Below, one piece after another: positions 6,150 to 14,086 of a stretch of DNA of 64,000 nt. The stretch comes from Eledone cirrhosa (taxonomy: Eukaryota). The notes beneath the pieces are model-generated. The model did not search any database. It worked only from the letters and a program-made list of their open reading frames with translations, and was not told the DNA's origin. The stretch spans positions 248,868,001 through 248,932,000 of the forward strand of contig OZ024740.1 of NCBI GenBank assembly GCA_964016885.1. The letters run 5' to 3'. Every line of letters begins with the position of its first letter. Position 1 is the first letter of the stretch. The translations under genes were made by a program, and so were the position numbers.

Positions 6150-6220
6150 TATTTTATTATGCGCATTTCAAAAACAAACATCATCAAGCAATAATATTTG
6201 TGTTTTCATCAGATAAAACA
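6150..6220 (-). ncRNA. Minimal type I hammerhead ribozyme
   Basis: Reverse complement of 6347-6417. Confidence 0.8.
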
Positions 6221-6346
6221 GGAGAACATGATATGAAGGCTAAAAAACACTTGTGGATAGTGCAGTTTTAAATCAACATATCATGATATGTTGATTTAAA
6301 ACTGCACTATCCACAAGTGTTTTTTAGCCTTCATATCATGTTCTCC

Positions 6347-6417
6347 TGTTTTATCTGATGAAAACACAAATATTATTGCTTGATGATGTTTGTTTTTGAA
6401 ATGCGCATAATAAAATA
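6347..6417 (+). ncRNA. Minimal type I hammerhead ribozyme
   Basis: UGUUUUAU-CUGAUGA-[aaacacaaauauuau...augauguuuguuuuu]-GAAA-UGCGCA-UA^AUAAAAUA; palindromic stem III, AUA triplet, predicted cut after 6409. Confidence 0.8.
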
Positions 6418-6505
6418 CATGGAACTCCTTTAACCATCTTTTGATCTTATATTATATATATATATATATATATATATATATATATATATATATATATATA
6501 TATAT

Positions 6506-8638
6506 GCACTAAATGAGGAGAATAAATGGGAGAAAGACAGTCTTCCCCACATCGACCCAATAGAGGGACCAGCAGTGTTAGTCGAAGGTAGTATAATAAG
6601 TAAGGCAATCAAAGATATGAAGACTGGTAAGGCAGCTGGGCCTTCGGAAATAGTTGCTGAAATGCTGAAAGCCTCTGGAACGGTGAGACACACCATGGTC
6701 ACCCGGATAGTAAACCAAGTCATACAGAATGGGGTTGTTCCAAAGGACTGGCATAGCAGCATCATCATTAACTGCTACAAGGATAAAGGAGATGCCCTAG
6801 ATAGGAGTAACTATAGAGGCATTAAATTAATCGACCAGGTCATGAAGGTCACAGAAAAAGTAATAGCGCAACTAATCAGAGAGAGAATTGATCGAGATGA
6901 AATGCAGTTCGGGTTTGTGTCAGGCAAAAGTACCACAGACCCTCTTTTCATTGTACGACAACTACAGGAGAAGTATCTAGCTAAAAGTAAACCCTATACT
7001 TAGCTTTTGTCGACTTGGAGAAAGCCTTCGACAGGGTCCCCATTCCATTATCTGGTGGGCTCTTAGAAAACTAGGTGTTGATGAATGGCTTGTGAGAGCT
7101 ATACAAACCATGTATAAAGAAACAGTCAGCAAGGTTAGAATTAACAACGAATATAGTGAAGAGTTTAGCGTAAAAGTTGGTGTTCATCAGGGCTCCGTTC
7201 TTAGCCCCCTACTATTTATTATCGCCCTTCAGGCTATAACAGTGGAGTTCAAGACCGGCTGCCCGTGGGCACTCCTATACACAGATGTTCTAACGCTCAT
7301 AGCTGAATCAATGGCCGAACTAGAGAAGAAGTTCCAAACATGGAAGCATGGCCTAGAATCAAAAGGCCTTAAAATTAACCTGTCTAAGACTAAAGTTCTA
7401 GTTTGTAGGAAGGAAAATAGGGCGCCGGTCCCATTTGGGATATGGCCATGCTCAGTGTGTAGGAAAGGAGTAGGTAGAAACTCCATTTTATGTCCCAAAT
7501 GCAAAGTATGGGTGCATAAAAGATGTAGTGGGATCACAGGTAAGCTAACTAAGAACATAGATTTTATATGTGGCCGGTGCTCTGGTGCAATAAGTAGCAG
7601 CAAGTGCCCACAGAATACTAGCTCATTCCATTGCACAGATGGTTCTATAGAAATAGTGGACAGCTTCCGTTACCTGGGTGACAAAATCAGCAGTGGGGGA
7701 GGGTGCTCTGAAAGTACAGTAGCTAGAGTCAGAACTGGATGGAAAAAGTTCAGAGAGCTTATACCACTATTAGCCGCTAAAGGGTTCTCCCTAAAAATGA
7801 AAGGCAGGCTGTATGATGCCTGCATACGAACAACAATGTTGCATGGCAGTGAGACCTGGGCATTGTGTGCAGAGGATATACGCAGACTGGAGAGGAACGA
7901 AGCTTGCATGCTCCGCTGGATGTGTAATAGTAATATACGTGAACGGCAAAGCATAAGCGAGCTAAGGGAAAAATTAGAAATAAGAGGGATCAGATGTTGT
8001 TTACTCGAGAGAAGGCTACGTTGGTATGGTCACGTGATGCGCATGAAAGACGACAGCTGTATAAAAAAGTGCAGGGCAATAAAAATAGACAGTAGCCACG
8101 GAGTAGGCAGACCCAGAAAAACCTGGGACGACTTGATAAATTCCGACCTCACACACTTACACCTCTCCAAGACAATGTCACTGGACCGAGAGCTTTGGCG
8201 CTACACAGTAATAGAGAAAACCCGCCTTACCTAAGTACAGTCAGTAGGCACCTCTAACAAAATACCTACTACAGTCAGTAGGCACCTCTAACAAAATACA
8301 CCCCCATCCCACTACCCCCACCCCTTTCAATGTAAAGTTATGTTGGTACCACAACATCCAGCCCGAAACAAATGAGGTTGTGTAGGTGTCACGACAAAAA
8401 AACACACAGTCCACGCTGTAATGTGGCCGTGTAGGTAACACAGTAAAAACCTCCCAGTTCCACACTGTAAATGGGATTGGTGTTAGGAAGGGCATCCAGC
8501 CGTAGAAAACCTGCCAGACAGTCCTATGCGAGCAAGACAACCACTCTTGCCTCAAGTGGGAAAACACCCGTCCAAACCCATGCAAGCGTGGAATATGGAC
8601 GTTAAATGATGATGATGATGATGATGATGATGATGATG
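6506..8638 (+). mobile_element. 5'-truncated RTE-clade LINE (family A), RT with inserted PHD finger, (GAT)n tail
   Basis: ORFs 6575-7003 and 7092-8234 (frameshift near 6995): NYRGIKL, QFGF, GVHQGSVLSPLLF, FRYLG, RRLRWYGHVMR, GRPRKTW; tail (gat)n at 8607-8638; close inverted copy at 54197-56300. Confidence 0.95.
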
Positions 8639-8804
8639 CACACACACACACACACACACACACACACATATATATATATATATATATATATATATATATA
8701 TATATATATATATATATATATACATATATACATACACACATATATATATGTATACATACACATATATATATATACATATACATATATATACATATACATA
8801 TAAT

Positions 8805-8869
8805 TATTTTATTATATATATTTCAAGGGCAACCAAGGCAATCTTGGTGCGTTTTCATCAGATAAAATA
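8805..8869 (-). ncRNA. Minimal type I hammerhead ribozyme
   Basis: Reverse complement of 10727-10791 with one stem II change. Confidence 0.8.
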
Positions 8870-11568: not shown

Positions 11569-12867
11569 GAGCTGTCAGCATACAACAAATACATTGCCCA
11601 CAATACTTATGCTGTGCCAATTCTAACGCCAACATTTGGCCTACTGAACTGGTCATTGCAAGAACTAAGTGAGATGGATGTTAGAACTCGAAAACTTCTC
11701 AGTGTTACTGGGAACTTTAACATCAATGGTGATGTGGATAGGCTATACTTCTCACGCAAGGAAGGTGGCCGGGGTCTAAAATCAATATTAACAACATATG
11801 AGACCCGGATAGTAACACTGAAGCAACACCTTCAACAGAGGAAAAAGGTTGGCAACCATCTTGCCCAGGTTTATGAGCATGAAAAAAGAAATATCATTAG
11901 AATAGCGACTGATCTGGAGGAGAGATATGGAATAAAGCCTGATATAAATCTCTCACCCAGAGAAATCGGAAGATCCTATTCAATGTTCAAACAAGATAAA
12001 AAAATTGACCAATTTACAGAAAAAGTTGTGCATGGATACTTGAGGCGTAAAACACAGACCATAGAGGGGATAAACCACTAAAAAAACCTGGCATGGAGTT
12101 CCGACAAGTTTATGACATCACACCTTGAGGGATATCTCTATGCAATACAGGAACAAGAACTCCCTACCAAATATCTGCTGCACAAAAGAGGAGGGCCAGC
12201 AGCTGACAATAAATGTAGGCTATGTAAAACAAAGATCGAGGATGTAAGCCACATTGTTGCCAGCTGCGAAAGAATGTCATCTCGCTACTACCTCCCCATG
12301 AGACACGATGGGATAGCTAGAACCATCTGGAACGCACTTCGGAAAACAAAATTAACAACAAACGAGGAAGAATATATTGAGACAGATGGCACTAAGGAAT
12401 ACTGGTGGAACCTGAAAATAAAAACTGCCACCAAATTAAAGCACAACCGGCCTGATATTGTAGTTTGGGACCACACATTGAAAACGTGTTCTGTTGTGGA
12501 GATCAGCTGCCCACTTGATGTAAACGTTGTCAGAAAAATACAGGAGAAGGAGGACATCTACGGACCATTGATGAGGAGTTTACAAATCCAGTATCCAAGA
12601 TACACCTTTAGCTTCATACCCATCATTATTGGTGCTACGGGTTATATACCAACCCGCTTGGACCAAAGTATGACTGAACTTGGATTTGCGGACAAAAAGC
12701 GCAGCTCCCTAATTCATAGTCTACAAATGGCTGCGATAGCTGGCACCTTCAAAATTTGCAAAACATTCTTGCGATTCAAGGGATGACAATTTCTTTTCTT
12801 TTACAACCTTGCCACCAGGAAGGTGGCCGGTCAAAAAAATATACTCAAAATTAAGAGAAAGAGAAAA
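11569..12867 (+). mobile_element. 5'-truncated RLE-type non-LTR retrotransposon (R4/Dong-like) inserted in (CATA)n
   Basis: ORFs 11614-12081 and 12112-12786 (one in-frame stop): DVDRLYFSRKEGGRGL, AIQEQEL, CCHC knuckle CRLC-x7-H-x4-C, RHD, RPDIVVWD...VEISCP (PD-(D/E)xK); (CATA)n on both flanks. Confidence 0.88.
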
Positions 12868-12928
12868 CATACATACATACATATATATATAATATATAAG
12901 AACAAAAGATGGTTAAAAGAGTTCCATG

Positions 12929-12999
12929 TATTTTATTATGCGCATTTCAAAAACAAATATCATCATGCAATAATATTTGTGTTTTCATCAGATAAAATA
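12929..12999 (-). ncRNA. Minimal type I hammerhead ribozyme
   Basis: Minus strand: UAUUUUAU-CUGAUGA-stem II-GAAA-UGCGCA-UA-AUAAAAUA. Confidence 0.82.
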
Positions 13000-13726
13000 G
13001 GAAGACATATGAAGGTTAAAAAACACTTGTGGATAGTGCAGTTTTAAATCAACATATGAAAAGTAGTTTTAGATTGATGTGTGATATTGGGAAAAAAAAT
13101 TTTTTTTAGGGGGGTGGGGGGGGGGTGGAAAGGATGAAAAAGAGGAAGAGATGAGAGTAAAAAGTGGAGAGGGAGGAGTATAATGAGGAAGGATAAGATA
13201 GGAGGAGAGATGGGTGATAGAGAGAGAGATAGCTTTAATAACTGAGAGAAATATATTGTTTTACATATTCTTTCCATCGCACATATTATTAAACCCTAAA
13301 TATTATTCTTAATACATATTAACATTTTCTTTTCATCGCACATATTATTAAACCCTTCAATATACAAACCTTAACTTTACATTATTTTTCTCTTCGTTAA
13401 TTTTCAAATTCTTTTAATTTATACATTATCTTCCAACGGTTTTTCAACCTCTCTATGTAAAACAATATATTTCTCTCAGTTATAAAAGCTATCTCTCTCT
13501 CTCTATCACCCATCTCTCCTCCTATCTCATCCTTCCTCATTATACTCCTCCCTCTCCACTTTTTACTCTCATCTCCTCCTCTTTTTCATCCTTTCCACCC
13601 CCCACCCCCCTCAAAAAAAAAAATATATATTTTTCCCAATATCACACATCAATCTAAAACTACTTTTCATATGTTGATTTAAAACTGCACTATCCACAAG
13701 TGTTTTTTAACCTTCATATGTTTTCC

Positions 13727-13797
13727 TATTTTATCTGATGAAAACACAAATATTATTGCATGATGATATTTGTTTTTGAAATGTGCATAATAAAATA
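13727..13797 (+). ncRNA. Minimal type I hammerhead ribozyme
   Basis: UAUUUUAU-CUGAUGA-stem II-GAAA-UGUGCA-UA-AUAAAAUA; the stem III palindrome carries a CpG-type change. Confidence 0.78.
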
Positions 13798-14020
13798 CAT
13801 GGAACTCTTTTTAACCATCTTTTGTTCTTATATATTATGTATACTCCAGTCCTACAAACTGTAGAGTGCTTCTTATCCGATATCTGCATTGCTTTATTGT
13901 ACTACAATAAAACTCACCTCCTACATACATATATATATATATATATATATATATATATATATATATATATATATATTACATCAAAATATTAATAAATATA
14001 GACATTCATGTGATCAAATA

Positions 14021-14086
14021 TATTTTATTATACATATTTCAGAGGTACTGAACTATTTCAACAGTACGTCCTCATCAGATAAAATA
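14021..14086 (-). ncRNA. Minimal type I hammerhead ribozyme in a solo terminal-repeat-like segment (~13977-14400)
   Basis: Minus strand: UAUUUUAU-CUGAUGA-gGAcGUACUG(11-nt loop)CAGUACcUCu-GAAA-UAUGUA-UA-AUAAAAUA. Confidence 0.8.

What the first reader, a model, noticed from the sequence alone, without database searches (positions are those of the whole stretch)
6150..14086. Seven minimal hammerhead ribozymes from three element families in 8 kb, sharing stem I but with different stem II
Seen: HHRs at 6150(-), 6347(+), 8805(-), 10727(+), 12929(-), 13727(+) and 14021(-). All read UAUUUUAU (or UGUUUUAU)-CUGAUGA-[stem II]-GAAA-[6-nt palindrome or near-palindrome: UGCGCA, UGUGCA, UAUAUA, UAUGUA]-UA^AUAAAAUA. 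Stem II has three unrelated sequences and each still base-pairs, which argues for selection on the fold. Known: minimal type I HHRs with palindromic stem III occur in Penelope-like elements and are thought to cleave as dimers. Inference: this is a radiation of ribozyme-bearing, mostly non-coding PLE derivatives (retrozyme-like) that could be mobilised by a Hydra-type PLE. The 8801 element still carries that endonuclease's C-terminus.
Basis: partly seen in the sequence, partly recalled or inferred. Interest (0 to 1): 0.8.

Follow-up and report, generated by a model that had tools for sequence, protein, structure and literature searches.

The report
Twin hairpins mark Penelope insertion ends
The seven ribozyme motifs are the ordinary ends of four truncated, folded-back insertions of a known kind of jumping gene, but each insertion ends once just before each of two copies of a conserved small hairpin, which likely shows that two copying enzymes start on the element's RNA at two marked sites.

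Summary
All seven hammerhead motifs are real (7 matches, 0 expected; 34,780 genome-wide). They are four insertions, not seven: three inverted pairs and one half-pair. They are not retrozymes. They are pLTR hammerheads of coding Hydra-clade Penelope-like elements; family A has about 70 intact ORFs among 150 scored. Stem II is homologous across families, with compensatory changes and an invariant C·Y mismatch. Hammerheads, inverted arms and a one-sided 'tail' are published, and this scan has noted fold-back Penelope insertions in other genomes. Not found in print: the 3' ends fall at two fixed sites, each about 2-9 nt before one copy of a duplicated bulged hairpin (RCUC…GAGY-RCU). That hairpin covaries and recurs in Hydra elements from marine metagenomes. 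36 of 38 inverted pairs have one end of each type, with no clean exception; a blind test on a distant family gave 5 of 5. Best reading (inferred): twin target-primed reverse transcription from two hairpin-marked sites. Cleavage and priming are untested.

The parts
6024..6283 (-). Insertion A1, long-ended arm: family A hammerhead (6150-6220), tail with hairpin 1 (6080-6107), runs into (TA)n
   Evidence: 98.2% identical to the intact-ORF copy L033
6284..6455 (+). Insertion A1, short-ended arm: hammerhead 6347-6417, predicted cut after 6409; fold-back apex at 6283/6284
8790..9320 (-). Insertion B, short-ended arm (end trimmed): hammerhead 8805-8869, internally deleted inverted copy of the 3' UTR
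9321..9530 (+). C-terminal 70 codons of a Hydra-type endonuclease (CxxC, E, N, CxH)
9531..10926 (+). Insertion B, long-ended arm: 3' UTR, hammerhead 10727-10791 (predicted cut after 10783), hairpin 1 at 10841-10863, long end near 10926
12884..13265 (-). Insertion A2, short-ended arm: hammerhead 12929-12999
13260..13926 (+). Insertion A2, long-ended arm: hammerhead 13727-13797 (predicted cut after 13789), hairpin 1 at 13843-13870; 8-nt overlap with the other arm
13973..14281 (-). Insertion C, short-ended arm: hammerhead 14021-14086 (homology to other C copies shown to about 14161)
14282..14400 (+). Insertion C, truncated long-ended arm: tail only, does not reach the hammerhead
   Evidence: 78-84% identical to long-ended C copies
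47764..48050 (+). 5' region of a distant Hydra family (H), used as the blind test: variant hammerhead with a CCGAAGA core, hairpin 1 (47861-47897) and hairpin 2 (48024-48043) before the ORF

Best explanation
The seven hammerheads are pLTR motifs of coding Hydra-clade Penelope-like retrotransposons, left as four 5'-truncated inverted insertions in (TA)n, and each insertion likely arises when two reverse transcriptases start on the element's RNA at two sites, each marked by one copy of a conserved bulged hairpin. Shown: the two fixed 3' ends, their position about 2-9 nt 5' of hairpins 1 and 2, one end of each type per insertion, hairpin covariation, and intact ORFs. Inferred: the endonuclease nicks both strands of a (TA)n target; each nick primes cDNA at one hairpin-marked site; both cDNAs run through the uncleaved hammerhead; they join head to head by microhomology or short fold-back, often near a preferred stop about 63 nt upstream of stem I (likely the RNA 5' end). 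Finished insertions end before hairpin 2. So the ORF could be copied only from an RNA with the hairpins downstream of it: a tandem read-through transcript, or a circle made by dimeric hammerhead cleavage and ligation.
For: Identity: intact 821-codon frame with Hydra motifs, then 3' UTR and hammerhead A (L033); hand count of 71 of 150 scored copies with that open frame; best fold match is telomerase TERT. Two ends: of 69 family-A hammerheads, 34 end at +43 to +54, 31 at +136 to +138, 3 run on into the ORF, 1 is interrupted; the same two classes appear in families A2, B, C and others. One of each: 36 of 38 divergent pairs after inspection. Blind test: in family H, 14 of 30 end at +44 to +49 (hairpin 1 at +51) and 12 of 30 at +184 to +210 (hairpin 2 at +214); 5 of 5 inverted insertions have one of each. 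Other organisms: motif in 27 of 35 segments after metagenome hammerheads, shuffle mean 0.17, control 2 of 150; ends lie 2-4 nt before a hairpin in L225, L229 and L242/L246. Covariation: first inner pair 32 of 34 Watson-Crick against 16.2 shuffled. Both arms RNA-templated: the short-ended arm reaches further upstream in 6 of 10 unequal pairs. Arms differ by 1.1 letters within an insertion against 6.2 between. Precedent: two internal start sites, both strands extended, and hammerhead activity not needed in vitro (PMC11167929).
Against: No biochemical or RNA data were obtained. Genomic ends cannot tell an RNA start site from an endonuclease cut on a DNA intermediate, and the hairpin pairs are mostly Watson-Crick, so it could act as DNA. 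For 16 of 45 unpaired hammerheads no partner end was found (short flanks or tiny arms may explain this). The automatic classifier gave 34 of 38 and four pairs needed hand inspection. Ends merge with (TA)n, so positions are uncertain by a few bases. Only 1 of 23 private variants is shared by both arms, so 'same RNA molecule' is not shown, only 'same subfamily'. Hairpin 1 of family A has a predicted pairing probability of only 0.26-0.29 in context. None of 33 ORF-bearing arms begins within 15 nt of the hammerhead cut, so cleavage leaves no genomic trace. Metagenome loci include related copies, so the covariation counts overstate independence.
Confidence: 0.68

Rival explanations
1. Same elements, but the hairpin is a DNA-level signal. 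One cDNA, or a self-primed fold-back, is made and the GIY-YIG endonuclease trims the intermediate next to each hairpin, giving the tail and the short end (the 'EN-mediated resolution' and self-priming views).
For: Craig 2021 attributes the tail to EN-mediated resolution. Arkhipova 2013 reads junction palindromes as self-priming. D. virilis EN needed the tail for recognition (as cited in PMC11167929). Perfect palindromic apexes are common. The short end lies in TA-rich sequence like the target.
Against: A fold-back copy cannot reach further upstream than its template, yet the short-ended arm is longer in 6 of 10 pairs and the long-ended arm in 3 of 10. In PAc the tail ends map onto two measured RT start sites.
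Confidence: 0.2
2. One reading: a radiation of non-coding, retrozyme-like elements that carry hammerheads and borrow a Hydra enzyme.
For: Most copies are short and non-coding. Retrozymes are proposed to be non-autonomous derivatives of these elements (10.64898/2026.07.22.740005). One short direct tandem of family C was seen (L063).
Against: The same families have ORF-bearing copies; window copy A1 is 98.2% identical to an intact copy. There is no same-strand neighbour within 1.1 kb among the first 100 family-A matches. Finished short copies lack hairpin 2.
Confidence: 0.06
3. The 350-470 bp fold-backs are a MITE-like family that moves as one unit.
For: About 2,900 short fold-backs with a sharp spacing mode (710, 2,070 and 165 places in three 30-nt bins). 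Many share an identical apex.
Against: Junctions vary. The modal apex occurs on at least three subfamily haplotypes. Arms match each other more than other insertions. The two ends are unequal.
Confidence: 0.05

Closest known systems
Hydra clade of C-terminal EN+ Penelope-like elements (Craig et al. 2021, PMC8557442; includes Hydra-1_Obim)
   Same: Single ORF; RW, DKT, CxCX5C, CxxC and CxH motifs; no CCHH; (TA)n targeting; pLTR hammerhead; inverted 5'-truncated copy; one-sided tail.
   Different: Unit is 3.7-3.9 kb with a 1 kb or longer 3' UTR; tail is about 83-160 nt rather than 30-40; tens of thousands of copies. The twin hairpin is visible in their Hydra-1_Ajap consensus, but I found no remark on it.
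Minimal type I hammerheads of metazoan Penelope-like elements (Cervera and de la Peña 2014, PMC4209133)
   Same: Core, palindromic positions 15.2-16.2, long helix II, many sequence families, pairs on opposite strands 100-700 bp apart, origin in truncated elements.
   Different: Pair 10.1-11.1 is mostly A-U or G·U (G-C in 5 of 71); no extra base after position 9; invariant C·Y mismatch at 10.4.
PAc (Poseidon) internal initiation (Frangieh et al. 2024, PMC11167929)
   Same: Two internal RT start sites downstream of the hammerhead define the tail; both strands extended; uncleaved RNA used as template; AT-rich target.
   Different: PAc sites are adjacent in one AC-rich stem-loop inside the ORF. 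Here the ends are 83-160 nt apart in the 5' UTR, each before its own copy of one hairpin, and insertions use one of each.
Non-LTR retrozymes (Cervera and de la Peña 2020, PMC7229834; Li et al. 2026 preprint)
   Same: Type I hammerhead, link to Penelope-like elements, high copy number.
   Different: Retrozymes are non-coding direct tandem repeats. These are inverted fragments of coding elements.
L1 twin priming (recalled, no paper read)
   Same: Both target strands prime, and an inverted product joins by microhomology.
   Different: In L1 the second priming site is arbitrary and the arms do not overlap. Here both sites are fixed and both arms copy the same RNA region.

Membership tests
Hydra-clade PLE | Single ORF with telomerase-like RT | tested here: met
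   821-codon open frame in L033; top fold match TERT, E 1.4e-07; Pfam gave no hit
Hydra-clade PLE | C-terminal GIY-YIG-type endonuclease without CCHH, with CxxC and CxH around E and N | tested here: met
   Motifs read in alignment A1; no profile hit confirms the domain
Hydra-clade PLE | RWK motif, DKG changed to DKT, CxCX5C linker | tested here: met
   RLRW (relatives RMRWK), DKT and CNCRIKNKC
Hydra-clade PLE | Insertion into (TA)n and hammerhead in the pLTR | tested here: met
   direct pLTR hammerheads flank the ORF in L058, L036 and L060
Hydra-clade PLE | Generally shorter than 3 kb | tested here: not met
   Hammerhead-to-hammerhead unit is 3.3-3.7 kb and tandem spacing 3.66-3.94 kb; a descriptive trait, explained by the long 3' UTR
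Hydra-clade PLE | Placement inside the clade in an RT tree with the published references | not tested
   Reference proteins were not obtained
Minimal type I hammerhead of PLEs | CUGANGA, GAAA and UH core with helices I and II | tested here: met
Minimal type I hammerhead of PLEs | Palindromic stem III able to pair as a dimer | tested here: met
   134 of 141 copies give 8 of 8 self-pairs; family A co-folds through it, family B did not in the lowest-energy structure
Minimal type I hammerhead of PLEs | G10.1-C11.1 pair and an unpaired base between 9 and 10.1 | tested here: not met
   A-U 43, G·U 21, G-C 5 of 71; the register without an extra base pairs 69 of 71
Minimal type I hammerhead of PLEs | Self-cleavage | not testable with these tools
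   No assay and no RNA run available
Non-LTR retrozyme | Direct tandem units of about 150-450 nt, each with a hammerhead | tested here: not met
   None among the first 100 family-A matches; one 205-nt family-C pair in 40 fetched loci
Non-LTR retrozyme | Non-coding family | tested here: not met
Non-LTR retrozyme | Expressed as small circular RNA | not testable with these tools
   No RNA run available

The most novel reading that the evidence does not exclude
Hydra Penelope-like elements carry a clade-wide, duplicated RNA hairpin that docks two telomerase-like reverse transcriptases and fixes two staggered start sites. Every insertion is a twin-primed product with one end of each type. The neighbouring hammerhead is kept because cutting and circularising the RNA puts both hairpins downstream of the ORF, which finished insertions otherwise cannot do.
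Probability: 0.42. Interest if true: 0.78.

Novelty: new variant of a known kind. Interest (0 to 1): 0.6.

Why it matters
How Penelope-like elements make their inverted repeats and one-sided tail is stated as unresolved in the papers read (PMC8557442, PMC11167929). A short hairpin that sits before both ends, covaries, and is shared by distant Hydra elements gives a defined cis signal to mutate, move or transplant. The one-of-each rule gives a clear prediction for a reconstituted reaction. These enzymes are the sister group of telomerase, so how they recognise their RNA matters beyond this genome. Intact, recently active copies are plentiful here. The hammerheads alone would be ordinary.

Tried and rejected
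A DNA search of the genome with the family A end found nothing because common words are skipped; patterns were used instead. Rfam: no hammerhead among the 150 listed window matches; one metagenome copy scored 27.6 bits against a gathering score of 34, and no family matched the hairpin in 6 loci. Pfam and PDB sequence searches did not recognise the ORF. Sequencing runs: no RNA holder listed, which says nothing on expression. Contigs of run X1 show loose ends into (TA)n at both predicted termini, but X1 may be the source sample, so I count it only against an assembly artefact. Dimer prediction for residues 1-480: no answer, score 0.00, alignment not used; not used either way. MAFFT misaligned the 5' half of the hairpin, so pairs were counted by anchoring in a script and no covariance model was built. 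Rejected: a genomic trace of cleaved templates; seven independent ribozymes; unrelated stems II; a record copy number (axolotl has up to 120,000 retrozyme copies). Hairpin search in earlier scan notes: nothing.
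Full report
Observation. The seven motifs are present as described. A pattern for stem I, core, palindrome and cut site gives 7 window matches against 0.00 in 100 shuffles, and 17,458 + 17,322 = 34,780 matches in the 3.0 Gb genome against 0 for the reversed control, about one per 86 kb. 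Self-comparison shows three inverted structures (6107-6460 at 98.9%, 12884-13843, 8785-10811). The seventh motif also has an inverted partner arm at 14282-14400 that is too short to reach its own hammerhead. So there are four insertions. Of the first 100 family-A matches listed, 62 lie in 31 divergent pairs under 5 kb apart, and none has a same-strand neighbour within 1.1 kb (my count). The host looks like a cephalopod to me, but that is recalled and was not tested.

What they belong to. In 40 loci fetched around listed matches, families A and B flank or follow Hydra-type coding sequence, and family C lies 2-3.4 kb downstream of it. L033 holds an unbroken 821-codon frame followed by about 1 kb of 3' UTR and hammerhead A. 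L058 and L036 have direct pLTR hammerheads on both sides of the ORF; L060 has the same for family B, frameshifted. A search with the N-terminus scored 150 of 12,231 candidates, and I count 71 with the 821-codon frame and no stop. The protein has the features that Craig et al. give for Hydra (section 11; alignment), and its model matches TERT best. Window copy A1 is 98.2% identical to L033. These are 5'-truncated copies of autonomous elements, not retrozymes.

The ribozyme. The counts are sequences, not independent events. G10.1-C11.1, called highly conserved by Cervera and de la Peña, occurs in only 5 of 71. None of 33 distinct ORF-bearing arms begins within 15 nt of the cut site; the closest are -16 and +41. 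Inserted copies carry the hammerhead whole, as Frangieh et al. found for PAc. Activity is untested.

Two fixed ends. Of 69 family-A hammerheads, 34 end 43-54 nt after the cut, 31 end at 136-138, 3 continue into the ORF and 1 is interrupted; the ends run into (TA)n. The extra stretch is the element's own 5' UTR, i.e. the known tail. Families A2, B, C and several others show the same two classes. A script classed 38 divergent same-family pairs as 34 long+short, 2 short+short and 2 long+long. On inspection L072 and L090 are long+short, L032 is interrupted, and L049 is two separate insertions: 36 of 38, with no clean exception. Twenty-one loci were picked for short spacing, not for end type. For 45 unpaired hammerheads the script found a partner in 29: 25 of the opposite type directly, L071 and L027 also opposite on inspection, L058 a spurious hit, and L068 inside a larger inverted duplication. 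Sixteen had none.

The twin hairpin. Each end lies about 2-9 nt 5' of a motif RCUC-Y…R-(2-nt bulge)-GAGY-RCU; copy 1 follows the short end and copy 2 the long end. I noted this as a hypothesis, then tested a distant Hydra family from the window (about 45% identical in the N-terminal part; 3,501 matches). Of 30 copies, 14 end at +44 to +49, 9 at +210, 3 at +184 to +198, 1 at +60, and 3 run through; the hairpins start at +51 and +214; 5 of 5 inverted insertions have one end of each type. Of 80 metagenome loci I examined 73; 47 have a hammerhead by a loose descriptor. Of 38 hand-picked hammerheads, 35 had at least 100 nt downstream; 27 carry the motif and 9 carry two copies, against a shuffle mean of 0.17 and 2 of 150 control segments. 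Several of these loci are the same family. In L225, L229 and L242/L246 the 3' copy stops 2-4 nt before a hairpin seen in the 5' UTR. On all 45 instances, the inner stem pairs in 69 of 84 cells with a 2-nt bulge, against 17-55% in other registers. On 35 chosen instances (five metagenome instances dropped, own-genome set changed) the first inner pair is Watson-Crick in 32 of 34 against 16.2 shuffled. Inner pairs were not used for selection; relatedness is not controlled. The motif was not found next to the GIY-YIG (Penelope-type) element at 15650-17400.

The junction. Family-A-type fold-backs number 710, 2,070 and 165 in three 30-nt spacing bins. The mode is a palindrome centred 61 nt upstream of stem I. 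In many listed cases one arm stops about 63 nt upstream, sometimes with reiterated end sequence. 36 of 69 family-A arms stop 64-74 nt from the core (an enriched sample), and 11 of 20 family-B arms at 71-87. I read this as the RNA 5' end; Penelope starts transcription in its pLTR. Of 11 junctions mapped, 7 show 1-16 nt overlaps and 4 a short gap or insert; leaving out near-symmetric L065, the short-ended arm is longer in 6 of 10 and the long-ended arm in 3, with L032 unclassifiable. Arms share a subfamily haplotype in 18 of 25 pairs against 0.11 by chance.

Mechanism. Shown: ends, hairpins, the one-of-each rule and arm asymmetry. Inferred: two enzymes dock on hairpins 1 and 2, each primed by one nicked target strand, and the two cDNAs join head to head. 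It follows from the anatomy that finished insertions lack hairpin 2 downstream of the ORF. Full-length copying would therefore need tandem read-through (tandem units of 3.66-3.94 kb are in the list) or a hammerhead-made circle, as Cervera and de la Peña proposed. The main rival is a DNA-level signal for the endonuclease.

Literature. Read: Craig 2021 (passages, section 11, supplement part 2 of 59 and word searches); Frangieh 2024 (parts 1-2 of 4, supplement search with no hits); Cervera 2014 (parts 1-2 of 4); Li 2026 (parts 1-3 of 5); passages of PMC3846280, PMC7229834 and PMC13282606. Hammerheads in pLTRs, opposite-strand pairs, the one-sided tail, junction palindromes, two start sites and an octopus Hydra family are all published. 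Nine searches found no description of the twin hairpin or of a strict one-of-each rule. Supplementary figures could not be seen, Craig's file was cut, the preprint's supplements were not seen, and the older Penelope papers (Pyatkov 2004, Evgen'ev 2005, Arkhipova 2006) were not read. Three earlier scan notes describe fold-back Penelope insertions in other genomes; none as listed mentions the hairpin.

Verdict. The finding as written is a new member of a known kind. The twin hairpin and end rule make it a new variant with a direct test of an open mechanism. Interest 0.6.

Noticed in passing
window 47764-50513 (+): Frameshifted Hydra element of family H. Its hammerhead core reads CCGAAGA (U4 changed to C) in most of the 30 copies examined; 3,501 matches genome-wide.
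   Followed up: partly
71 stem II sequences: An invariant C·Y mismatch at the fourth position of helix II across families A-G; it may be a tertiary contact or a protein-binding site.
   Followed up: partly
window 15650-17400: GIY-YIG Penelope-type element with its own hammerhead at 15954 (-) and a mutated direct-strand copy near 17140; no twin-hairpin motif found beside it.
   Followed up: partly
window 62950-64000 (-): Another Hydra fragment with a hammerhead-like motif at 62968 that shares the ACAAUUGU palindrome of family H.
   Followed up: no
window 60088 (+) and 44667 (+): Further hammerhead-like cores; the one at 60088 has a palindromic AACGUU stem III. Parent elements not identified.
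   Followed up: no
L033 ORF residues 580-656: A low-confidence asparagine-rich insert between RT and endonuclease, absent from the 15 aligned relatives; similar inserts are described in rotifer Penelope elements.
   Followed up: no
window 6508-8800 (+): Fragment of a LINE with RT and PHD-like finger, 92.8% identical to 54017-56302, lying between insertions A1 and B. The label RTE-type is recalled.
   Followed up: no
window 11560-12880 (+): 3' fragment of a non-LTR element with a zf-RVT hit and what looks like a restriction-like endonuclease (the latter is recalled).
   Followed up: no
window 172-558, 2781-3335, 39263-39733: Helitron-like Rep/helicase fragments (recalled from the translations).
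   Followed up: no
L205, L242, L246, L247, L259 (+14 to +15 after the cut): An extra short hairpin resembling the motif lies just after the hammerhead in some metagenome families.
   Followed up: no
G000 C6:38074963-38082696, C2:134083838-134088153 and others: Head-to-tail tandems of ORF-bearing family-A units at 3.66-3.94 kb spacing, candidate source loci.
   Followed up: no
window 24117-24719 (+): Host gene exon that looks like an M28-type membrane metallopeptidase (recalled).
   Followed up: no
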